This document shows positions 6,985 through 53,991 of a stretch of DNA of 64,000 bases, piece by piece. The notes under the pieces are model-generated. The model worked only from the letters and a program-made list of their open reading frames with translations. It searched no databases and was not told the DNA's origin. A program made the position numbers and the translations under genes. How positions within the stretch are numbered: the stretch's first letter is position 1; each line of letters starts with the position of its first letter. Source of the stretch: Escherichia phage vB_EcoM_FJ1; sequence record MZ170040.1. The stretch is one strand, 5' to 3'.

Positions 6985-8444
6985 CAGATATTGTACTGAA
7001 TGACTTACCATTCGTTGACGGCCCTCCTGCAGAGGGCCAGAGCCGCATTTCCTGGATTAAAAACGGCGAAGAAATATTAGGAGCTGACACACAATATGGA
7101 AGTGAAGGTTCAATGAATAGACCTACAGTTTCTGTACTAAGAAATGTTGAAGTTCTTGATAAAAACATTGGAATACTTAAAACATCTTTAGAAACCGCAA
7201 ATAGTGATATTAAAACCATCCAGGGCATCTTAGATGTATCTGGTGATATAGAAGCTTTAGCACAAATAAGTATCAATAAAAAGGATATTTCTGACCTCAA
7301 AACGCTAACCAGTGAACATACAGAAATATTAAATGGAACTAATAGTACAGTTGACAACATTCTTGCTGATATTGGTCCATTTAACTCCGAGGCCAACTCT
7401 GTATACAGAACGATCAGAAATGATTTACTGTGGATAAAGCGTGAACTTGGACAATACACAGGTCAAGATATTAATGGTCTTCCTGTTGTAGGAAATCCTA
7501 GCACAGGAATGAAGCATCGCATCATTAATAATACTGATGTCATCACTTCACAGGGAATACGTTTAAGCGAATTAGAAACAAAATTCATTGAATCTGATGT
7601 AGGTTCTTTAACTATTGAAGTTGGTAATCTTCGCGAAGAGCTTGGACCGAAACCACCGTCATTTTCACAAAACATCTACAGTCGTTTAAATGAAATTGAC
7701 ACTAAACAGACAACATTCGAATCTGACATTAGTGCTATTAAGACCTCAATAGGATATCCAGGAAATAATTCGATTATCACGAGTGTTAATACAAACACTG
7801 ATAATATTGCATCTATTAATTTAGAGCTAAATCAAAGTGGAGGTATTAAACAGCGTTTAACAGTTATTGAAACTTCTATTGGCTCAGATGATATTCCTTC
7901 GAGTATTAAAGGTCAAATCAAAGATAATACAACTTCAATCGAATCTCTGAATGGAATCGTCGGTGAAAACACTTCATCTGGTTTAAGAGCGAATGTTTCA
8001 TGGTTAAACCAAATTGTTGGAACTGATTCTAGCGGTGGACAACCTTCTCCTCCTGGGTCTCTTTTAAACCGAGTTTCTACAATTGAAACTTCTGTTTCAG
8101 GCTTGAATAATGATGTTCAAAACCTACAAGTAGAGATTGGTAATAACAGCACAGGAATTAAAGGGCAAGTTGTAGCGTTAAATACTTTAGTAAATGGAAC
8201 TAATCCAAACGGTTCAACAGTCGAAGAACGTGGATTAACCAATTCAATAAAAGCTAACGAAACTAACATTGCATCAGTTACACAAGAAGTGAATACAGCT
8301 AAAGGCAATATATCTTCTTTACAAGGCGATGTTCAAGCTCTCCAAGAAGCCGGTTATATTCCTGAAGCGCCAAGAGATGGGCAAGCTTACGTTCGTAAAG
8401 ACGGCGAATGGGTATTGCTTTCTACCTTTTTATCACCAGCATAA
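6981..8444 (+). CDS. wac: fibritin (whisker antigen control)
   Basis: 487 aa, length and position between genes 12 and 13 match T4 fibritin. Confidence 0.9.
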
Positions 8445-22747: not shown

Positions 22748-22768
22748 GGGACCTTTCGGTCCCTTTTT
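22748..22768. terminator. terminator hairpin between convergent genes 24 (+) and rnlB (-)
   Basis: GGGACC-TTTC-GGTCCC followed by TTTTTATTT. Confidence 0.65.
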
Positions 22769-24354: not shown

Positions 24355-26349
24355 TTATGGATAGGTATAGATGATACCAGTTTCTAAAGCAGTTTTATGA
24401 ATGATGTATCCATTACGCGATTCTTGGACATCAACTTCTGGATAGTCTTTCATCATCTTCTGAAGAGTGTAACGATGCAGGTAGTATTTACTATCTGGAT
24501 CGTCAGTTTTCCAATCTTTACCTTCTTCGGTCATTTTTTGGATTTCATCCATAACCCACCAACCGCACCAGATGTAAGCTGAAGTGCGATGTGGAAGAGG
24601 ATGAACATAAGGCAATTCACCTTCTGGTTCTGGAGCAACTTTATCAGTTACCTGAACTTGACCTTCTGCTGTGATAGTTTTGCTATCATAATCAGTAGCA
24701 GTAACAGTTGCAGTAACTTCAATAGTTTGACTTCCAATAGATGATGTATCAACAGTGTATACATTAGTTGACCCTTCTACTGGAGAAGAATCTTTCTTCC
24801 ATGAATATTCGATTTGTGCTTCTTCTGGAGCATCCGTAACATTAGCAGTAAATGTAGCCGAAGCATCTTGCTGAACGTTAATAGAAGGAGGAGTCAATGT
24901 AACCCGTGGATTCATTGTTTTCTTATTAACAGTCAATGATACTTCATTAGAAGTAACTTCCTTTTCATTGTAATTTTCTGCAGTTACTTGCGCTACACAC
25001 TTAACTGTTTTAGCTCCAACTGTGGTAGGAGTATAGTTAAATGTAGTAGTAGTTTCTCCATCGACCAGAGAACCGTCAACATACCACTGATACGTAGCAG
25101 ACGCTCCTGGTGGCTGTGAAGCCAAGGCAGCAGTAAATTGAACTGGGGTTCCAATTACTGCTGCAGCAGGATTAGCAGGAGTTACGGCTAACGTAGTTGT
25201 CTGTGTTTTCTTATTAACTGTTAATGATACTTCATTAGAAGTAACTGTTTTTGCGTCATAATCTGTTGCTGTTACTTGCGCTACACATTTAATTCTTTTT
25301 ACTCCACTTGTAGTTGGAGTATAGCTAAATGTAGCAGAAGTCGCTTCACCAATTTGAGAATCATCTACATACCACTGATACGTAGCAGATGCCCCATCAG
25401 GTTGAGAAGCTAAGGCAGCAGTAAATTCAACGGCTGTTCCAATTACTCCTGCTGGAGGACTATCAGGAGTTACAGATAGGGTAGTCGTTTGTGTTTTCTT
25501 GTTAACAGTCAAAGATACTTCATTCGAAGTAACTTCCTTTTCATTGTAATTTTCAGCAGTTACTTGGGCTACGCATTTAATTCTTTTAACCCCACTTGTA
25601 GTTGGAGTGTAATTGAACGTAGCATTAGTTTCTCCACCAACTTGTGAATCATCTACATACCACTGATACGTAGCAGATGCTCCTAGCGGCTGCGAAGCTA
25701 AGGCAGCAGTAAATTGAACTGGGGTTCCAATTACTCCTGCTGGAGGACTATCAGGAGTTACTGCCAAAGTAGTCGTCTGCGTCTTTTTATTAACAGTCAG
25801 TGATACTTCATTAGAAGTAACGCTTAGTGTATCATAATCTGCCGCAGTTACTTGAGCTACACACTTGATTTTTTTAACTCCGCTTGTGTCAGGAGTGTAA
25901 TTGAATGTAGCGTCAGTTGCTTCGTCTACAGGAGAACCGTCAACGTGCCATTGATACGTAGCGTTTGCACCTGATGGCTGTGAAGCTAAGGCAGCGGTAA
26001 ATTGAACTGGGGTTCCAATCACTCCAGCATCAGGGCTACCAGGAGTTACTGCCAACGTAGTTGACTGAGTTTTATTTTGAACTGTGATAGTTGTACTAAT
26101 TTCAGCTGTTTCAGGTTCAGATTCTGCAACTTGATTGGTTGCAACTACTTTAATAGTCTTTTGACCGGCAGGTCCTTTTAGTACATAACTAAAAGTTGCT
26201 GACGTTTCTTCCTGTGGAGCGTCGTCTACAGTCCAAGCATATGTAATAGGTCCATCTCCAGTTTGACCACTGGGTGTAGCAGTAAACTGCTGAGTCTGAT
26301 CTATAACTCCAGTAGGTGTTTTAGGAGTTATATCAACTGTAAAAGTCAT
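24355..26349 (-). CDS. hoc: highly immunogenic outer capsid protein Hoc, expanded form with extra Ig-like domains
   Basis: 664 aa; N- and C-terminal regions recognised as Hoc; internal 4 x 96-aa tandem units. Confidence 0.9.
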   Translation of the reverse strand: MTFTVDITPKTPTGVIDQTQQFTATPSGQTGDGPITYAWTVDDAPQEETSATFSYVLKGPAGQKTIKVVATNQVAESEPETAEISTTITVQNKTQSTTLAVTPGSPDAGVIGTPVQFTAALASQPSGANATYQWHVDGSPVDEATDATFNYTPDTSGVKKIKCVAQVTAADYDTLSVTSNEVSLTVNKKTQTTTLAVTPDSPPAGVIGTPVQFTAALASQPLGASATYQWYVDDSQVGGETNATFNYTPTTSGVKRIKCVAQVTAENYNEKEVTSNEVSLTVNKKTQTTTLSVTPDSPPAGVIGTAVEFTAALASQPDGASATYQWYVDDSQIGEATSATFSYTPTTSGVKRIKCVAQVTATDYDAKTVTSNEVSLTVNKKTQTTTLAVTPANPAAAVIGTPVQFTAALASQPPGASATYQWYVDGSLVDGETTTTFNYTPTTVGAKTVKCVAQVTAENYNEKEVTSNEVSLTVNKKTMNPRVTLTPPSINVQQDASATFTANVTDAPEEAQIEYSWKKDSSPVEGSTNVYTVDTSSIGSQTIEVTATVTATDYDSKTITAEGQVQVTDKVAPEPEGELPYVHPLPHRTSAYIWCGWWVMDEIQKMTEEGKDWKTDDPDSKYYLHRYTLQKMMKDYPEVDVQESRNGYIIHKTALETGIIYTYP
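24925..26076 (-). repeat. four in-frame tandem 288-bp repeats inside hoc, each encoding one Ig-like domain
   Basis: Protein units begin NK(K)TQ(S/T)TTL and end SNEVSLTVN at residues 92, 188, 284, 380; 288-bp periodicity visible in DNA. Confidence 0.85.
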
Positions 26350-27060: not shown

Positions 27061-27088
27061 TAGATATATTTATTACTCGGAAAATAGT

Positions 27089-37746: not shown

Positions 37747-37750
37747 CAAC

Positions 37751-37780
37751 GGGGACCTTTCGGTCCCCATATTTTTATTT
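37751..37780. terminator. bidirectional terminator between gene 54 (+) and minus-strand ORF
   Basis: GGGGACC-TTTC-GGTCCCC followed by ATATTTTTATTT. Confidence 0.65.
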
Positions 37781-38065
37781 ACGGAATGAAATGAAAGCAG
37801 AAACTGAAGCAACTAAACTGTCTTCAATATAAACTTCAATTTTTACCGGAGCTTCTGACTCAAATTTACCTGTTACTACACCCTGAAAAATACTTTCAGT
37901 CTGTTCTGGCTTTGAAAAATTTTCAGAAGGAAAAATTCCGAACTTTTTATCTGTTCCAAAAATTTTAATAAATTCATCGTAAACCGCTTCGTTAAAAGCA
38001 TTATCAGCAGGAATAACGCCTTCAACTACAAGTTCTTGACCTAAAAAGCGTAAAGAAGATTTCAT
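37775..38065 (-). CDS. hypothetical protein (T4 alt.-3 position)
   Basis: 96 aa ATG ORF preceded by GAGGA; driven by the repeated early promoter cassette. Confidence 0.65.
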   Translation of the reverse strand: MKSSLRFLGQELVVEGVIPADNAFNEAVYDEFIKIFGTDKKFGIFPSENFSKPEQTESIFQGVVTGKFESEAPVKIEVYIEDSLVASVSAFISFRK

Positions 38066-38072
38066 TTTGTGT

Positions 38073-38126
38073 TCCTCATGTTATGTCAGTAAGACTACTA
38101 TAACACAACACGAGGGACTTGTAAAC
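38073..38126 (-). repeat. 54-bp early-promoter cassette copy A (PeSL-like), identical to 52347-52400
   Basis: Exact 54/54 match; minus strand reads GTTTAC-N17-TTATAG...ACATAACATGAGGA (-35, -10, leader, SD). Confidence 0.8.
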
Positions 38127-38483
38127 TACATTTTGAACTTTTTAGTACGCGTAATAGGCATGCGTCGATTTTATACTGTTTCATTGTTTGAAGAGCAGTA
38201 TCAAAAACAGCATTAATGACGCCAATTGGATTTCCACCCAAGTTTTTAAGTTTAACTAATGATAGTTTCTCATTAACACCTATCATTACGATATGCATCA
38301 TTTTGTCGCCTGGTTTAACGTTTTATCTGTATCACCGCCAGAGGTGTATGTACAAAATCTAAATCCAGGAAGCACGCTTTCTTCGCCGGCTTGAATAGCA
38401 AAAATTTGTGGTATTTTATGCTTAGGATTTAAGTTAACAACCGGCGCCGAAGCGCCGTCAAATAATTATGTAATAAGTTCCAT
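38098..38483 (-). pseudogene. decayed tandem partial copy of the alt 5' region (Alt N-terminal paralog fragment)
   Basis: Starts ATGGAACTTATTACATAA 3 nt after alt stop (MELIT then in-frame TAA); continues with LFDG...NLNPKHKIPQIF...FCTYTSGGDT and, after a frameshift, MMHIV...KQYKIDACLLRVLKS, all homologous to Alt residues 1-120. Confidence 0.7.
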
Positions 38484-38486
38484 GAT

Positions 38487-40580
38487 TTATCCTTGAACGA
38501 ACTTGTAAGGCATGTTTGCAATATCTATGCAAGACGCAATAATTCCAAGAGATGATTCTACTTTCTGTTTAACATTTGATGAAACAAATGATGCAAAGTC
38601 AACTCTGTCTTCTATTTCAATATCACCTGTCATTGCAACCAATTCACCAGTTTCCATTAAATGGTCTCCATCATAGATTACCGATTCGGTGAGCTCTTCC
38701 GTGGTCATAACTTCAGCTTGAATGAGTTTTGTATTATTAGATGTTGTTCCGTCATTATTAGAAGCATCAGTTATTTTATTAACTTTGACCATCAATCCAC
38801 GCGGTAGAATAACTTCAGCTTCTGTTGCTATTCCGAGACTTCCTGGATATACAACATTAACTTTATGAGCTCCATCAATTGCCCATCCTATTTGAACTTT
38901 AACGTATTCAGGATTTTCTTTATACGCTCTTATTTCGTTTGGATTAATAGTTATTCCTTCTTCATTTTTATCAACTGTTAATTCATTGCGAGCTTCTGGT
39001 TCTAAAAGACCAATACCAGCATGTGTAATTCCAAAACGTCCAAAAATGATAGGAGTTAAAGAAGTAGATACAAAATTTCTGAAATAGAATACTTTATTTT
39101 TAACTAGTGCTTCGTATATAGGAGCAGTCATACTTTGAGCACGATAAACTGTAATGCCTTCTGGTATACGATCACCATTTTCAAAAGCAGAATCTAAATT
39201 AGTTATAGCAGCTTCAATTTCTTTTTCACTCATTACTTCATAACGTTCTGGATCATAACGACCCAAAAGAAGATTATTGATGTCAGTATATCCTGAACCG
39301 CAATACTCTCTAATGCCACGCTTTTGTGATGGAGTATATTTAGAACCATCACGGGCAATAGTAATATCAATCATTGGACCTGCACCAATTCCAGAGAAAC
39401 TATAAATCATTCTTTTGAGGAATTTAGTTTTTGTCGCGTTCCAGGAATTTTTAGTTATTTCTTCCCAGACTTCATCTGGCTGTCCTTTACGGGTTTTATT
39501 ATGTTTATCAAGCCAAGTATCTTTATATTCTTCAAATAATTGATTAACAGCTGCTGCGTATTTCTCTAAACATTTTATTGAAGTAGTCGGTTCATTTTTA
39601 ATCGCATTAAGAATTACATCTTTAATTTTTTCAGAAACTTCATTAACCTCACTTTTTGAAAAGAATTTATAGTCATAATGAAGTTCATCTGCAGTTCCTT
39701 CGGCAATGATTTTTGCTGCCTTAGTTTTAGAAGCTAATGAATTAATTCCAATTTTCATTTCTTCTGCTTCGGGAATTAAAGGTGCAGTAGCTGGTTTATT
39801 AAAATTAGCTGCTGTAGATTCATACTTCTGGAATAATTCACTTTCAAATCTAGAAGACTCTAATGATTGACTTTGTGCAATTGCTCTACGGGAAATTTTA
39901 ACTTTAACGATTACAGCTTGATCAGAACGTTTATCATTTTCTTGTGCAATAGATGCTGCAATTGCCTCATTTTTAGTTACTTGAGCTCCGGTATCTTTAT
40001 TGATATAAACATCACCGACCTTCGATTCAACTTTAGTAAAGAGCTCGGTACTAATTTCCGGAACTCCTGGAATGTCTTCTAGTGATACATTTTTGCGATG
40101 TATAAGAATATATGCATACTTTTTATCATAATCCCAGAGTTCCTTAAGAAGGACGTATCTGCCACCTGAACGACTACGGATAAGTCTATCAACAATAACT
40201 TGAATTTGTCGAGCTTGACCAGCAGTTTTAGACTTAAGAATACGGAGCATACAGGCATCAATTTTATACTGACGCATTGTTTGCATTGCAACAGTAAAAA
40301 CCGAATTGATATAATTAATTGGGCTTGGACCAAGACCTTTCAATTTAGCAATTGAACCTTTAGCGGTTAATGTAAAAGGAACAATATGCATCATTTTATC
40401 GCCCATCTTTAAATCACGATTAGTATCACCTCCAGATGTATAGGTACATAAACGAAAGCCTGGTTGTTCAATTGCATCATCAACATGAACTGAAAAAATT
40501 TGTGGTATTTTCTTCTTTGGATTTAAGTTTGTAATCGGAAGAGTAGTATCTTCGTCAAATAATTCTGTAATTAGTTCCAT
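38487..40580 (-). CDS. alt: ADP-ribosyltransferase Alt (virion-packaged, modifies host RNA polymerase)
   Basis: 697 aa from second ATG (MELITELF; track gives 698 from first ATG); sequence recognised as T4 Alt. Confidence 0.9.
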   Translation of the reverse strand: MELITELFDEDTTLPITNLNPKKKIPQIFSVHVDDAIEQPGFRLCTYTSGGDTNRDLKMGDKMMHIVPFTLTAKGSIAKLKGLGPSPINYINSVFTVAMQTMRQYKIDACMLRILKSKTAGQARQIQVIVDRLIRSRSGGRYVLLKELWDYDKKYAYILIHRKNVSLEDIPGVPEISTELFTKVESKVGDVYINKDTGAQVTKNEAIAASIAQENDKRSDQAVIVKVKISRRAIAQSQSLESSRFESELFQKYESTAANFNKPATAPLIPEAEEMKIGINSLASKTKAAKIIAEGTADELHYDYKFFSKSEVNEVSEKIKDVILNAIKNEPTTSIKCLEKYAAAVNQLFEEYKDTWLDKHNKTRKGQPDEVWEEITKNSWNATKTKFLKRMIYSFSGIGAGPMIDITIARDGSKYTPSQKRGIREYCGSGYTDINNLLLGRYDPERYEVMSEKEIEAAITNLDSAFENGDRIPEGITVYRAQSMTAPIYEALVKNKVFYFRNFVSTSLTPIIFGRFGITHAGIGLLEPEARNELTVDKNEEGITINPNEIRAYKENPEYVKVQIGWAIDGAHKVNVVYPGSLGIATEAEVILPRGLMVKVNKITDASNNDGTTSNNTKLIQAEVMTTEELTESVIYDGDHLMETGELVAMTGDIEIEDRVDFASFVSSNVKQKVESSLGIIASCIDIANMPYKFVQG

Positions 40581-40603
40581 CATATCCTCTCTAGTGTTTA
40601 TTC

Positions 40604-40611
40604 TATTTATA
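40604..40611 (-). promoter_or_regulatory. late promoter TATAAATA (minus strand) for alt
   Basis: TATTTATA on + strand, about 20 nt upstream of alt ATG. Confidence 0.6.
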
Positions 40612-40632
40612 AAATTAAAGGCCCGAAGGCCT

Positions 40633-40821
40633 TTAGTAATCTAGTGGTAAGAGAGTACGATATATTTCAAACTTTGGTCCTTTTTCATAGGCATCAAATG
40701 TTTCTGTAAATTTATTATAAGCGTATGCATCTACAAATTCGAGAATGACTTGTGATACAGAAGTAGAAACATCTCCACCTTCTTTTTGAGCAATGACAAT
40801 TGTTTCTAAGTAAGCTTTCAT
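40633..40821 (-). CDS. hypothetical 62-aa protein between gene 30 and alt
   Basis: ATG ORF overlapping gene 30 stop; followed by hairpin AAAGGCC-CGAA-GGCCTTT at 40617-40634. Confidence 0.5.
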   Translation of the reverse strand: MKAYLETIVIAQKEGGDVSTSVSQVILEFVDAYAYNKFTETFDAYEKGPKFEIYRTLLPLDY

Positions 40822-44962: not shown

Positions 44963-44991
44963 ATAATATCATGTCCTGTACCAAAGTAAAC
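44963..44991 (-). promoter_or_regulatory. sigma70-type early promoter
   Basis: Minus strand GTTTAC - 17 nt - TATTAT. Confidence 0.5.
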
Positions 44992-45383: not shown

Positions 45384-45400
45384 AACTTTATGCAATCTTT

Positions 45401-45431
45401 GGAAAATAAAAAAGGACTCCCGAAGGAGTCC
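45401..45431 (-). terminator. strong intrinsic terminator
   Basis: Minus strand GGACTCC-UUCG-GGAGTCC followed by TTTTTTATTTT. Confidence 0.7.
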
Positions 45432-45436
45432 TCAAC

Positions 45437-45655
45437 TTATGCTTTCTGCTTACCAAAACGAGAAGCATCATCTCGAAGAACCGCACGTGCTCGGCGCATG
45501 ATCTTCTCAACAGTTTGATTGATACGAGAGTTCGACCCACGCTTGTAGCCAGCGCGTTTAGAATCACCAACTTTCTTTTCAACTGCTTTCTTTGCTTTAG
45601 CTTGTTTTGCCATTATAAATTCTCTTTTAAATGAAAATGCAGGACTTATTGGCAT
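45437..45655 (-). CDS. small highly basic protein (alternative start at 45613 gives 58 aa)
   Basis: ATG ORF, Lys/Arg-rich (MAKQAKAKKAVEKK...); start ambiguous between two ATGs. Confidence 0.5.
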   Translation of the reverse strand: MPISPAFSFKREFIMAKQAKAKKAVEKKVGDSKRAGYKRGSNSRINQTVEKIMRRARAVLRDDASRFGKQKA

Positions 45656-49045: not shown

Positions 49046-49075
49046 ATAATATCACAACTCTACCGTAAAGTAAAC
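49046..49075 (-). promoter_or_regulatory. sigma70-type early promoter upstream of cd.3-position ORF
   Basis: Minus strand GTTTAC - 18 nt - TATTAT. Confidence 0.45.
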
Positions 49076-51495: not shown

Positions 51496-51845
51496 TTAGA
51501 AAGGTCCTGGATGTCTTCTGCGAACTTGTTGAAGGAGTTGTTGATTTGTTTTTCAACCAATCCTGGCTTATGAGCCACCACATCCGCCTTCTTTGCGTCT
51601 TTGCGCAGTTTTTCATTTTCACGCTCAATAGCAGCAATTGCCTCACGATTTTTATTATTCATCGCATCAATATAATTATACTGAATTCGCAAATTATTTA
51701 ATGCTAAGGCGTTTTCATTGGCCGTTTTTGTAATTTCTACAACAGACGTTTCTAATCTTTCAATTTTATTTTTTAAAATTAAAGAAGTTCCGCCCAATGC
51801 AATTACAATTAATAGCAAGCCTGCTGTCGTATTACTTAATTGCAT
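51492..51845 (-). CDS. i-spanin, inner-membrane protein (T4 pseT.3 equivalent)
   Basis: 117 aa; N-terminal transmembrane helix then coiled-coil-like periplasmic part. Confidence 0.75.
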   Translation of the reverse strand: MQLSNTTAGLLLIVIALGGTSLILKNKIERLETSVVEITKTANENALALNNLRIQYNYIDAMNNKNREAIAAIERENEKLRKDAKKADVVAHKPGLVEKQINNSFNKFAEDIQDLSK

Positions 51846-52342
51846 AAAGTTTTAATAACCTCTATAATATCGTCTTGAGAAAGACCGTTAATTAAAATAT
51901 GATGTTCAGCCGGAGATTTAGAAATTTTAAAGCATGCCTCAACATCTTCTGCCATATCCGATGCGCTACGATTTGGATTACTAATCCCAAGGCGGTGTTT
52001 TCCCGTCAAAGGATTAACGATGATATAGCATTTACAACTATTGATATGAACATTAGGCTGAGTCTGATTAATGAACACTTCACAATCATACTTAGCGAGT
52101 TGATTTTCTAAAAAGACTTTCATCTCTTCAACCGCATCAGGAAGCATATCACGGGCTTGCTCAAGACGACGATTTCGATATTCTTTAATGGTCGTTTTCC
52201 GCTTGACTTGCTTAGCTAAATCTTTCTTAAGATCAGTGATATATCCAACTCGACGATTTCCTTTGAATACCGAAATCCCATCTGTAGTATCACCGTATGC
52301 TTCAACGACCATTTCAGTAGTAATAAGTTGTAAATCCATCAT
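51836..52342 (-). CDS. alc: Alc, inhibitor of host transcription elongation
   Basis: 168 aa, length and position between rnlA and the spanins match T4 Alc. Confidence 0.8.
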   Translation of the reverse strand: MMDLQLITTEMVVEAYGDTTDGISVFKGNRRVGYITDLKKDLAKQVKRKTTIKEYRNRRLEQARDMLPDAVEEMKVFLENQLAKYDCEVFINQTQPNVHINSCKCYIIVNPLTGKHRLGISNPNRSASDMAEDVEACFKISKSPAEHHILINGLSQDDIIEVIKTLCN

Positions 52343-52346
52343 AAAG

Positions 52347-52400
52347 TCCTCATGTTATGTCAGTAAGACTACTATAACACAACACGAGGGACTTGTAAAC
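52347..52400 (-). repeat. 54-bp early-promoter cassette copy B (PeSL-like), identical to 38073-38126
   Basis: Exact repeat; occupies the entire rnlA-alc intergenic space and supplies -35, -10 and SD for alc. Confidence 0.8.
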
Positions 52401-52403
52401 AGC

Positions 52404-53991
<1,588 letters not shown>

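What the first reader, a model, noticed from the sequence alone, without database searches (positions are those of the whole stretch)
38073..38126. Identical 54-bp early-promoter cassette, copy A, marking a recombination junction
The sequence TCCTCATGTTATGTCAGTAAGACTACTATAACACAACACGAGGGACTTGTAAAC occurs here and again, identical, at 52347-52400. On the minus strand each copy reads GTTTAC, a 17-nt spacer ending TGTG, TTATAGT, a short leader with a small stem (TGTTAT...ATAACA) and GAGGA immediately before an ATG (the 96-aa ORF here, alc at the other site). This matches the promoter-early stem-loop (PeSL) elements described in T4-type phages as portable regulatory cassettes. This copy abuts the decayed alt duplication, consistent with involvement in the rearrangement.
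Basis: partly seen in the sequence, partly recalled or inferred. Interest (0 to 1): 0.5.

Follow-up and report, generated by a model that had tools for sequence, protein, structure and literature searches.

The report
Self-gating early promoter cassette, duplicated
Two identical 54-base early-promoter cassettes in this T4-like phage, in front of the host-shutoff gene alc and the small gene alt.-3, fold into a hairpin that should hide the ribosome-binding site in RNA arriving from upstream genes but not in RNA started at the cassette, so these genes would be translated only early in infection.

Summary
The 54-mer occurs exactly twice (38073-38126 and 52347-52400), where none is expected by chance. 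About 500 Tequatrovirus genomes, T4 included, carry it at the same two sites, so it is not an assembly artefact.

On the minus strand it reads as a T4-type early promoter (GTTTACA, N17, TGT-TATAGT) followed by a leader and Shine-Dalgarno (SD) sequence, in front of alt.-3 and alc.

The PeSL reading is largely right, because PeSL subclasses include stem-loops that overlap the -10 box. Two details are wrong.
- The neighbouring deletion in the alt paralogue joined a separate 9-bp repeat (CTAAAAAGT) 10 bp upstream. It did not use the cassette.
- The "small stem" is really an 18-bp hairpin (-22 kcal/mol, z = -5.4). Its 5' arm is the promoter spacer and its 3' arm contains the SD.

The predicted transcription start lies inside the hairpin. 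Own transcripts therefore leave the SD free, while read-through RNA from alt or rnlA should bury it.

The same design, with different complementary arms, precedes alc in Dhaka-, Karam- and Moonvirus and a Klebsiella phage, and motB.2 in T4. It is rare among similar promoters. Other genera carry a different promoter at alt.-3, so Tequatrovirus probably copied the alc cassette there.

It resembles the T4 e/soc/49/I-TevI hairpins, but with an early promoter inside. Function is inferred, not shown.

The parts
38073..38126 (-). Cassette copy A: early promoter, leader and SD in front of alt.-3
   Evidence: Exact 54-mer. Best promoter-like site in its region. Folds as an 18-bp hairpin, -22 kcal/mol, z = -5.4.
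38120..38125 (-). Copy A -35 hexamer TTTACA, preceded by G at 38126
38097..38102 (-). Copy A -10 hexamer TATAGT, with TG at 38104-38105 (extended -10)
38102..38115 (-). Copy A 5' arm of the hairpin, CCTCGTGTTGTGTT. This is the promoter spacer and it contains the anti-SD CCTC.
38074..38087 (-). Copy A 3' arm, GACATAACATGAGG, which includes the SD GAGG at 38074-38077
38090..38090 (-). Predicted transcription start of copy A: an A, 7 nt after the -10 box and inside the hairpin
   Evidence: Inferred from promoter geometry. The predicted own transcript is unstructured (z = +0.6).
37775..38065 (-). alt.-3 (96 aa, DUF5498)
37749..37770 (-). Terminator hairpin after alt.-3, shared with gene 54 on the other strand
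38137..38145 (-). Joint of the 1.69-kb deletion in the alt paralogue: 9-bp microhomology CTAAAAAGT, 10 bp upstream of the -35 box
38127..38486 (-). Remnant of the second alt gene (T4 alt.-1/alt.-2): the N-terminal part of about 116 codons plus the last 20 bp or so
   Evidence: Repeat families D2 and D15. T4 annotation. Alignment to PhiZZ23.
38487..40583 (-). alt (ADP-ribosyltransferase). Its transcripts can read into copy A.
   Evidence: No minus-strand terminator lies between alt and the cassette.
40604..40635 (-). Terminator hairpin (40616-40635) followed by the late promoter TATAAATA (40604-40611), upstream of alt
52347..52400 (-). Cassette copy B: early promoter, leader and SD in front of alc
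   Evidence: -24.4 kcal/mol, z = -5.0
52394..52399 (-). Copy B -35 hexamer TTTACA
52371..52376 (-). Copy B -10 hexamer TATAGT
52376..52389 (-). Copy B 5' arm (spacer with anti-SD)
52348..52361 (-). Copy B 3' arm, which includes the SD GAGG at 52348-52351
52364..52364 (-). Predicted transcription start of copy B
   Evidence: Inferred from promoter geometry. The predicted own transcript is unstructured (z = +1.5).
51836..52342 (-). alc (inhibitor of host transcription). T4 uses the second ATG, at 52339.
52404..53564 (-). rnlA (RNA ligase 1). Its stop codon lies 3 nt before the -35 G, and its transcripts can read into copy B.

Best explanation
Each copy is a strong T4-type early (sigma-70) promoter built so that its own spacer acts as an anti-Shine-Dalgarno sequence.

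1. In RNA that enters from the upstream gene (alt into alt.-3, rnlA into alc), the spacer CCUCGUGUUGUGUU pairs with the leader GACAUAACAUGAGG. This 18-bp hairpin buries the ribosome-binding site.
2. RNA started at the cassette's own promoter begins inside the hairpin, at about position 37, and lacks the 5' arm. Its ribosome-binding site is therefore open.
3. The predicted result is that alc and alt.-3 are translated only from their own immediate-early transcripts and are shielded from middle or late read-through.
4. The cassette is ancestral at the alc site. In the Tequatrovirus ancestor it was copied over the native alt.-3 promoter, between the shared motifs GTTTACAA and ACATGAGGA. This kind of promoter-to-promoter recombination is the one proposed for PeSL elements.

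Shown here: the repeat, the promoter consensus, the hairpin and how unusual it is, its compensatory conservation, and the absence of upstream terminators.

Inferred: the transcription start, the effect on translation, and the direction of copying.
For: Structure:
- The hairpin is -22 to -25 kcal/mol with z from -4.2 to -6.5 in all Tequatrovirus variants, and the SD is paired.
- The predicted own transcripts are unstructured.
- The sense strand folds at -20.5 kcal/mol against -11.0 for the antisense strand, as expected for G.U pairs selected in RNA.

Variation within Tequatrovirus:
- Across 15 distinct variants, 98% of cells are paired. Six of the seven distinct substitutions in the main stem keep the pairing, and all three G.U pairs are repaired to Watson-Crick in some lineage.

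Other genera and loci:
- Different complementary arms give the same design at alc. Dhakavirus has TCTCCTCAT/ATGAGGAGA. Karam- and Moonvirus have 17 Watson-Crick pairs (-26.4 and -23.5 kcal/mol, z = -7.7 and -7.1). Klebsiella phage Roth34 has TCCTCAT/ATGAGGA.
- Only the alc-type spacers pair with SD leaders: -11 to -21 kcal/mol, against -1 to -8 for the other spacers.
- In the background set, 3 of 85 similar promoters reach -15 kcal/mol, against 0 of 841 permuted pairs. Those three all precede one homologous gene, each with different arms.
- In 75 kb of T4, only alc, alt.-3 and motB.2 stand out among 18 candidate promoters.

Read-through and expression:
- No minus-strand terminator lies between alt or rnlA and the cassettes, and a late promoter sits upstream of alt.
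- T4 omics: alt.-3, alc and motB.2 are early RNA and early protein. alt, rnlA and dexA proteins are late, late and middle. alt.-1 and alt.-2 RNA is middle class.

Origin of the copy:
- The alt.-3 promoters of Mosig-, Dhaka-, Gapriver-, Marfa- and Karamvirus are of another type with no SD pairing.
Against: - I could not reach any transcription-start or translation data for these sites. The start site is predicted from geometry alone.
- Within the genus there are only one-sided, wobble-compatible changes. My estimate for that pattern is p of about 0.02-0.05, which is weak on its own.
- C12A breaks the terminal pair in some alt.-3 copies. G29A breaks an inner pair, though it also improves the -10 box to TATAAT.
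- Mosigvirus alc lacks the 5' arm, so the gate is dispensable there.
- The omics classes are also what a plain early promoter would give, with no gate at all.
- Ribosomes finishing the upstream ORF 0-6 nt before the -35 box might open part of the helix.
Confidence: 0.6

Rival explanations
1. It is an ordinary PeSL as its authors describe: a promoter plus a stem-loop whose job is to terminate or attenuate transcription coming from upstream and to offer homology for recombination. On this view the pairing with the SD is incidental.
For: - The architecture fits the PeSL definition, and a stem-loop from phage RB49 lowered downstream lacZ about as much as a strong terminator.
- Other early promoters here have hairpins that bracket the -10 box without touching the SD: window 44990 and 49074, and T4 20612 and 7215.
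- T4 also holds mosaic early-promoter cassettes at 27080, 166807 and 167086.
Against: - No U-tract follows the hairpin at either copy, and the scan finds no minus-strand terminator there.
- The arm reaches the SD in four or five genera through compensatory changes.
- Spacer-SD complementarity is absent from 82 of 85 background promoters.
- The adjacent deletion did not use the cassette.
Confidence: 0.2
2. It is a translational-coupling device. In read-through RNA the hairpin blocks the SD unless ribosomes translate the upstream ORF to its stop codon next to the -35 box and melt the base of the helix. Translation of alc or alt.-3 on long transcripts would then follow translation of rnlA or alt.
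For: - The upstream stop codons lie 0-6 nt before the -35 box at alc (rnlA), at alt.-3 in genomes with a full-length alt paralogue, and at motB.2 (dexA).
- In the alc copy the helix extends down to cassette position 7.
Against: - The CCUC:GAGG pairs start 11 nt after the first base of the -35 element, at or beyond the reach of a terminating ribosome.
- The upstream proteins are middle or late class while the downstream proteins are early class in T4. Tight coupling would not predict that.
Confidence: 0.12
3. It is a DNA-level element: a palindromic operator for a dimeric protein, or a cruciform that tunes promoter opening. RNA structure would be irrelevant.
For: - The inverted repeat spans the promoter core.
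- As single-stranded DNA it still folds better than shuffled sequence (-9.6 kcal/mol, z = -4.3).
Against: - Three of the 14 stem pairs are G.T, and they evolve as G.U to A-U or G-C and C-G to U.G.
- Sense RNA folds twice as stably as antisense.
- The arm sequences differ completely between genera, so no common protein-binding site is conserved.
Confidence: 0.04
4. It is a neutral leftover of a recent duplication, or an assembly artefact, with no selected function beyond that of a promoter.
For: The two copies are 100% identical in this genome.
Against: - The repeat is at the same two sites in about 500 independent genomes, with 0-5 differences per copy.
- The hairpin is conserved with different sequences in other genera.
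Confidence: 0.02

Closest known systems
PeSL (promoter-early stem-loop) cassettes of T4-type phages (Arbiol et al. 2010, PMC2839356; Comeau et al. 2014, PMC4122927)
   Same: - It has an early sigma-70-type promoter matching the PST/T4 consensus TTTACW-N17-TAYWAT at all but one position.
- The stem-loop overlaps the -10 box and includes G-T pairs.
- An SD and start codon sit at the 3' end, and the upstream gene's stop codon sits at the 5' end.
- The element is repeated in the genome.
- Promoter halves appear to be exchanged between loci, with crossovers between the -10 box and the SD, as in the authors' mini-circles.
   Different: - The stem is far longer (18 bp), and its 3' arm is the ribosome-binding site.
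- The authors treat the stem-loop as a terminator or attenuator and never mention translation.
- There is no U-tract.
- Copy B lies between two conserved genes (rnlA and alc), not among ORFans.
- The neighbouring indel did not recombine through the element.
RBS-sequestering hairpins with an internal promoter in T4 genes e, soc, 49 and I-TevI (reviewed by Uzan and Miller 2010, PMC3014915)
   Same: The long upstream transcript folds so that the SD or AUG is paired. A promoter inside or next to the 5' arm gives a shorter transcript that lacks that arm and is translated. The transcript's origin therefore decides translation.
   Different: In those four genes the internal promoter is a late (gp55, TATAAATA) promoter and the silenced RNA is early. 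Here the internal promoter is an early sigma-70-type promoter, its spacer itself is the anti-SD, and the silenced RNA would be middle or late read-through. The review does not list alc, alt.-3 or motB.2.
Fold-back inhibition in IS10/Tn10 transposase mRNA (Davis, Simons and Kleckner 1985; from my own knowledge, not checked here)
   Same: Transcripts entering from outside form a hairpin that hides the transposase ribosome-binding site. The element's own sigma-70 promoter starts inside the hairpin, so its own transcripts are translatable.
   Different: It belongs to a bacterial insertion sequence, not a phage temporal programme, and there is no sequence relationship.
Early-promoter elements flanking the internal-protein (IP) loci of T-even phages (Repoila et al. 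1994, as cited in PMC2839356 and PMC4122927)
   Same: These are repeats based on T4-type early promoters, with AT-rich stem-loops, and they are linked to gene shuffling in T-even genomes.
   Different: They lie at other loci. The paper was not available to me, so sequence and structure could not be compared.

Membership tests
PeSL | Sigma-70-like or T4 early promoter (for PST/T4: TTTACW-N17-TAYWAT) | tested here: met
   The site reads TTTACA-N17-TATAGT with an extended -10 TG, scoring 10/12. It has one mismatch to TAYWAT, and the G29A variants give TATAAT.
PeSL | Stable stem-loop in one of five positions relative to the promoter, including overlapping the -10 box | tested here: met
   An 18-bp hairpin encloses the -10 box: -22 kcal/mol, z = -5.4.
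PeSL | [quoted passage not shown] | tested here: inconclusive
   The proximal 19 nt of copy A are about 79% A+T. Those of copy B are about 53%, with AT-rich sequence only further upstream (sequences).
PeSL | SD and start codon at the 3' end, and the stop codon of the upstream gene at the 5' end | tested here: met
   GAGGA lies 4-7 nt before the ATG. The rnlA TAA lies 3 nt before the -35 G. In relatives, the TAG of the full-length alt paralogue overlaps that G.
PeSL | Repeated motif, preferentially in hyperplastic regions next to variable ORFs | tested here: inconclusive
   There are two copies per genome. Copy A borders the variable alt-paralogue region. Copy B lies between the conserved genes rnlA and alc.
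PeSL | The stem-loop acts as a terminator or attenuator | not testable with these tools
   No U-tract is present and the scan finds no terminator-like site on the minus strand. Activity would need an experiment.
PeSL | Recombination through the element creates the neighbouring indels | tested here: not met
   The deletion in the alt paralogue joins a 9-bp CTAAAAAGT repeat 10 bp upstream, and the cassette is unchanged with or without it. Separately, replacement of the promoter at alt.-3 is consistent with promoter-to-promoter exchange.
RBS-sequestering hairpin with internal promoter (T4 e/soc/49/I-TevI type) | The SD and/or AUG is paired in the longer upstream transcript | tested here: met
   GAGG is fully paired in the predicted fold of every Tequatrovirus variant but one (3 of 4 bases in ZN18), and in the Dhaka, Karam and Moon versions. 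This is computational evidence only.
RBS-sequestering hairpin with internal promoter (T4 e/soc/49/I-TevI type) | The promoter is placed so that its own transcript lacks the 5' arm | tested here: met
   The -10 box lies at the top of the helix and the predicted start is at position 37 of 54. The own transcripts are unstructured. The start site is predicted, not mapped.
RBS-sequestering hairpin with internal promoter (T4 e/soc/49/I-TevI type) | Upstream transcription reads into the element | tested here: met
   No minus-strand terminator lies between alt or rnlA and the cassettes. In T4, alt.-1 and alt.-2 RNA is middle class right up to the cassette.
RBS-sequestering hairpin with internal promoter (T4 e/soc/49/I-TevI type) | The internal promoter is a late (TATAAATA) promoter and the silenced RNA is early | tested here: not met
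   The internal promoter is an early sigma-70-type promoter, and no TATAAATA occurs in the cassette. This is therefore a variant, not a member.
RBS-sequestering hairpin with internal promoter (T4 e/soc/49/I-TevI type) | Different translation of long and short transcripts has been demonstrated | not testable with these tools
   There is only indirect support: the downstream proteins are early class while the upstream proteins are middle or late class.
Intrinsic (Rho-independent) terminator | A G+C-rich hairpin followed directly by a run of U | tested here: not met
   The hairpin is followed by ACACAAAAUG in copy A and CUUUAUGAUG in copy B, and the terminator scan does not call either.

The most novel reading that the evidence does not exclude
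T4-type phages may use a so far undescribed class of self-insulating early promoters, in which the 17-nt promoter spacer doubles as an anti-Shine-Dalgarno sequence. Only transcripts born at that promoter would be translated. Read-through RNA from middle or late transcription would stay silent. This would be a temporal gate that mirrors the late-gene system of e, soc, 49 and I-TevI. The design is kept by compensatory change at alc in at least four genera. It was copied onto alt.-3 in Tequatrovirus, arose separately at motB.2, and also occurs in front of one gene family in uncultured phages.
Probability: 0.5. Interest if true: 0.6.

Novelty: new variant of a known kind. Interest (0 to 1): 0.45.

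Why it matters
Alc is the T4 protein that shuts off host transcription, and how its synthesis is confined to the first minutes of infection has not been explained at the level of its leader. A promoter whose spacer is also an anti-SD would be a very compact way to tie translation to the origin of the transcript. It would also give the PeSL stem-loops a concrete role beyond termination and recombination.

The design could be useful to engineers as a part that shields a gene from upstream transcription. It is directly testable in T4 with simple reporter fusions.

On the evolutionary side, the exact replacement of one promoter by another between two short shared motifs is a clean example of how regulatory modules move within phage genomes.

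Tried and rejected
1. I first read the 2014 PeSL paper as requiring a terminator hairpin upstream of the -35 box. None was found (upstream folds z = +1.1 and -1.3), so I was about to reject PeSL membership. The 2010 paper defines five stem-loop positions, including overlap with the -10 box, so I withdrew that rejection.

2. Concerted evolution of the two sites. Shared variants (T27C, G16A and G32A) occur at both sites, and the Mosigvirus pair is 80% identical. But background identity among unrelated early promoters is 55-70%. The "alt.-3-type" spacer CCACAAGGATGTGG also occurs at other T4 promoters. So I claim only one replacement, in Tequatrovirus, and a chimeric Mosigvirus alc promoter whose donor is unknown.

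3. MAFFT misplaced the 3' arms in the cross-genus alignment, so I used an arm-swap duplex matrix instead.

4. The shuffle control of the count of structure pairs was uninformative because no pair varies on both sides within the genus.

5. IMG/VR and metagenome scans with flank patterns or with the Alc and Alt.-3 proteins gave only five contigs each.

6. Searches for promoter names (Pe123.1, Pe136.3) and for T4 start-site mapping found nothing. Miller 2003 and Repoila 1994 are not held.

7. Rfam has no family at the cassette.

8. Mosigvirus has a related element in front of ndd.1. This may reflect partly generic early-promoter sequence, since TATAGTAGTCTT also occurs at T4:20612. I do not count it as a third copy.

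Full report
**Observation**

The 54-mer is present exactly twice, at 38073-38126 and 52347-52400. There is no further copy within three mismatches, and none is expected by chance (repeat family D6).

On the minus strand both copies read GTTTACA, a 17-nt spacer, TGT-TATAGT, a leader and GAGGA. Copy A is followed 7 nt later by the ATG of a 96-aa ORF. Copy B is followed 4 nt later by the ATG of a 168-aa ORF. Each copy is the best sigma-70-like match in its kilobase, scoring 10/12 with an extended -10 TG. Identity ends exactly at the G of GTTTAC and the A of GAGGA, and the flanks are unrelated.

**Context**

The window is a Tequatrovirus, about 99% identical to phages slur03, vB_Eco_Geo and UoN_LDJ77_1.
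- The 96-aa ORF is T4 alt.-3 (Pfam DUF5498).
- The 168-aa ORF is alc.
- The genes just upstream are the alt ADP-ribosyltransferase region and rnlA.

The repeat is not special to this genome. A BLAST search with copy A and short flanks finds two places per genome in about 500 Tequatrovirus records, T4 included. In T4 the alc copy is identical to the window sequence and the alt.-3 copy differs by one base. An assembly artefact is therefore excluded. Annotators of phages fPS-65 and Lutter independently marked promoters at these sites.

**The claimed recombination junction**

Many relatives (PhiZZ23, T2, fPS-65, OES_C-2, ZN18, PE37, Ge15) carry a second full-length alt gene. Its TAG stop codon overlaps the G of GTTTAC.

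Relative to PhiZZ23, the window, T4 and Lutter lack 1.69 kb of that paralogue. The joint is a 9-bp direct repeat, CTAAAAAGT, that occurs once near codon 116 and once 10 bp before the -35 box. It lies at window 38137-38145.

But the deletion is an ordinary short-homology deletion that did not use the cassette. The cassette is at the same place whether or not the deletion is present.

**The hairpin**

Folding the 54 nt of the coding strand gives one long hairpin.
- Positions 12-25 (CCUCGUGUUGUGUU) pair with positions 40-53 (GACAUAACAUGAGG).
- An inner 4-bp helix closes a 4-nt loop.
- The energy is -22 kcal/mol as RNA, with z = -5.4 and 0 of 200 shuffles as stable.

The 5' arm is the promoter spacer. 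The -10 box sits at the top of the helix. The 3' arm ends in the Shine-Dalgarno GAGG.

The start site predicted from promoter geometry is the A at position 37 (window 38090 and 52364), which lies inside the hairpin. Transcripts starting there are unstructured (z = +0.6 and +1.5).

RNA entering from upstream would contain both arms. That is expected. No minus-strand terminator lies between alt and copy A or between rnlA and copy B. alt has its own late promoter, TATAAATA at 40604-40611, just after a terminator.

**Is the hairpin selected?**

1. Strand asymmetry. The sense strand folds at -20.5 kcal/mol and the antisense strand at -11.0. The difference comes from three G.U pairs.

2. Variation within Tequatrovirus. 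In 38 copies (15 distinct sequences), 98% of cells are paired. Six of the seven distinct substitutions in the main stem keep the pairing: C13T, C15T, G16A, G40A, T44C and A46G. Only C12A breaks the terminal pair. G29A breaks an inner pair but turns the -10 box into TATAAT. By my own count this pattern has p of about 0.02-0.05, so it is only suggestive on its own.

3. Other genera. The alc promoter shows the same design with different arms:
   - Dhakavirus: TCTCCTCAT/ATGAGGAGA (-16.8 kcal/mol, z = -3.7).
   - Karamvirus and Moonvirus: TCTCCATTTGGTTGTGT/ACAC.AACCAAATGGAGA, 17 Watson-Crick pairs (-26.4 and -23.5 kcal/mol, z = -7.7 and -7.1).
   - Klebsiella phage Roth34: TCCTCAT/ATGAGGA.

4. Arm-swap test. 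Only these alc-type spacers pair with SD-containing leaders: -11 to -21 kcal/mol, against -1 to -8 for all other early-promoter spacers tested.

5. Rarity.
   - Among 85 distinct GTTTACA-N14-TGN-TATAAT promoters from IMG/VR, the spacer pairs with its own SD region no better than with permuted ones (medians -2.8 and -3.1 kcal/mol).
   - Only 3 of the 85 reach -15 kcal/mol, against 0 of 841 permuted pairs.
   - The cassette scores -21 on the same measure.
   - Those three all precede homologues of one 187-190-aa protein, each with different arms. They form a second covarying example.
   - In 75 kb of T4, three of 18 candidate early promoters stand out. They are alc, alt.-3 and the promoter of motB.2 just after the dexA stop, which has unrelated arms (-23.7 kcal/mol, z = -5.3).

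**Experimental hints**

In the T4 time-course of Wolfram-Schauerte et al. 2022 (supplementary files 4 and 6 of PMC9697503):

| Gene | RNA class | Protein class |
|---|---|---|
| alt.-3, alc, motB.2 | early | early |
| alt | middle | late |
| alt.-1, alt.-2 | middle | not classified |
| rnlA | early | late |
| dexA | early | middle |

The kinetic class therefore switches exactly at each cassette. This supports an active early promoter there and is consistent with a translational gate. It does not prove a gate.

**Origin of the duplicate**

At the alt.-3 site, Mosig-, Dhaka-, Gapriver-, Marfa- and Karamvirus carry an early promoter of another type. Its short dyad lies inside the spacer (for example ACACCAC-AAGGAT-GTGGT) and it has no SD pairing. 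The flanks are conserved up to GTTTACAA on the left and from ACATGAGGA on the right. These are the limits of the 54-bp identity.

The simplest reading is that the alc cassette replaced the native alt.-3 promoter in the Tequatrovirus ancestor, by recombination anchored in those two shared motifs.

The Mosigvirus alc promoter has the generic spacer. Its leader, ACAACACGAGG, is the perfect complement of the Tequatrovirus 5' arm. It is therefore a chimera that lost the gate.

T4 holds other mosaic early-promoter cassettes. The promoter at 27080 has the upstream half of the one at 166807 and the leader of the one at 167086. This agrees with the crossovers between the -10 box and the SD that Arbiol et al. 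mapped in PeSL mini-circles.

Because the generic spacer also occurs at other T4 promoters, I do not claim that the alt.-3 and alc sites repeatedly convert each other.

A crossover between the two direct copies would delete or duplicate 14.3 kb that includes genes 30 and 31, so it should be lethal. Only non-crossover exchange could persist. This last point is my inference from general T4 biology.

**Comparison with what is known**

The element fits the PeSL architecture of Arbiol et al. [quoted passage not shown] It also fits the PST/T4 promoter consensus of Comeau et al. 2014. Those papers see the stem-loop as a terminator or attenuator and a recombination site. They never mention translation.

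Functionally, the closest known cases are T4 genes e, soc, 49 and I-TevI. There a late promoter inside an RBS-sequestering hairpin makes only late transcripts translatable. Another close case, from my own knowledge, is fold-back inhibition of the IS10 transposase.

Here the internal promoter is early and its spacer is the anti-SD, so the polarity of the gate is reversed. I found no description of this for alc, alt.-3 or motB.2.

**Verdict**

- The interpretation as an early-promoter or PeSL-type portable cassette is supported.
- The claim that it marks or caused the alt rearrangement is not supported.
- The added finding is an SD-sequestering hairpin with an internal early promoter. It is well supported as a conserved structure (confidence about 0.75-0.8) and plausible as a translational insulator (about 0.6).
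- I rate it a new variant of a known kind, of moderate interest.

Noticed in passing
T4 NC_000866 about 8167-8218, minus strand (locus L167): The early promoter of motB.2, just after the dexA stop codon, has the same design with unrelated arms: GTTTACTTCCTCGGTTAGTTGTGGTACTATAACACCATAGCTACTGAGGATA. It folds at -23.7 kcal/mol (z = -5.3) with the SD paired.
   Followed up: partly
L100 from 3618 (+), L131 from 1341 (on its minus strand), L132 from 4280 (+): Three uncultured-phage contigs carry SD-sequestering promoter hairpins (-23 to -26 kcal/mol) with different arms. Each sits in front of a homologue of one 187-190-aa protein (MNLFILD..AAQQQCDKH..). The first 120 aa of one of them have no Pfam match.
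   Followed up: partly
T4 NC_000866 27080, 166807 and 167086, minus strand (loci L167, L023): Early-promoter cassettes are reused as mosaics. The promoter at 27080 has the -35 box, spacer and -10 box of the one at 166807 and the leader of the one at 167086.
   Followed up: no
window 44963-44990 and 49046-49074, minus strand: Two other early promoters have 7-8-bp inverted repeats that bracket the -10 box without reaching the SD: GGTACAGG...CCTGTACC and GGTAGAG...CTCTACC (z = -3.1 and -3.8). They look like typical PeSL-type stem-loops.
   Followed up: partly
L020-L022 (Mosigvirus), about 1480-1545: The ndd.1 orthologue is preceded by an early promoter whose -10 box, leader, SD and ATG context (TATAGTAGTCCTACTGAAACATGAGGAACACAAAATG) are about 87% identical to the alt.-3 copy. 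Its spacer differs and the gene is unrelated.
   Followed up: partly
window 24355-26349, minus strand (repeats at 24916-26079): A Hoc-like ORF of 664 aa, much longer than the annotated Hoc-like ORFs of relatives such as PhiZZ23 (1131 bp, about 376 aa). It contains four tandem 288-nt repeats, 78-85% identical, which probably encode extra Ig-like domains.
   Followed up: no
window 37751-37768 and 22748-22763: The same terminator hairpin, GGGACCTTTCGGTCCC, occurs at two convergent gene boundaries. One lies between gene 54 and alt.-3 (family D9).
   Followed up: no
L028 (Gaprivervirus VR20), 1923-2156: A partial duplicate of alc (VR20_237) sits between rnlA and alc. It is preceded by a GGGG...CCCC hairpin that overlaps a degenerate -35 box.
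   Followed up: no
L029 and L030 (Dhakavirus UGJNEcP3): There are three tandem Alt-like ADP-ribosyltransferase genes upstream of alt.-3, compared with two or one and a half in Tequatrovirus.
   Followed up: no
L009 (phage Ge15), 9021-10055: An insertion sequence (transposases InsC and InsD) lies inside the gene 30.x region of a T4-like phage genome.
   Followed up: no
window 45398-45481, minus strand: A weak Rfam match to the Rhizobiales sRNA Atu_C8 (31 bits, below the threshold of 50) overlaps a strong terminator hairpin at 45412-45433. It is probably a chance match.
   Followed up: no
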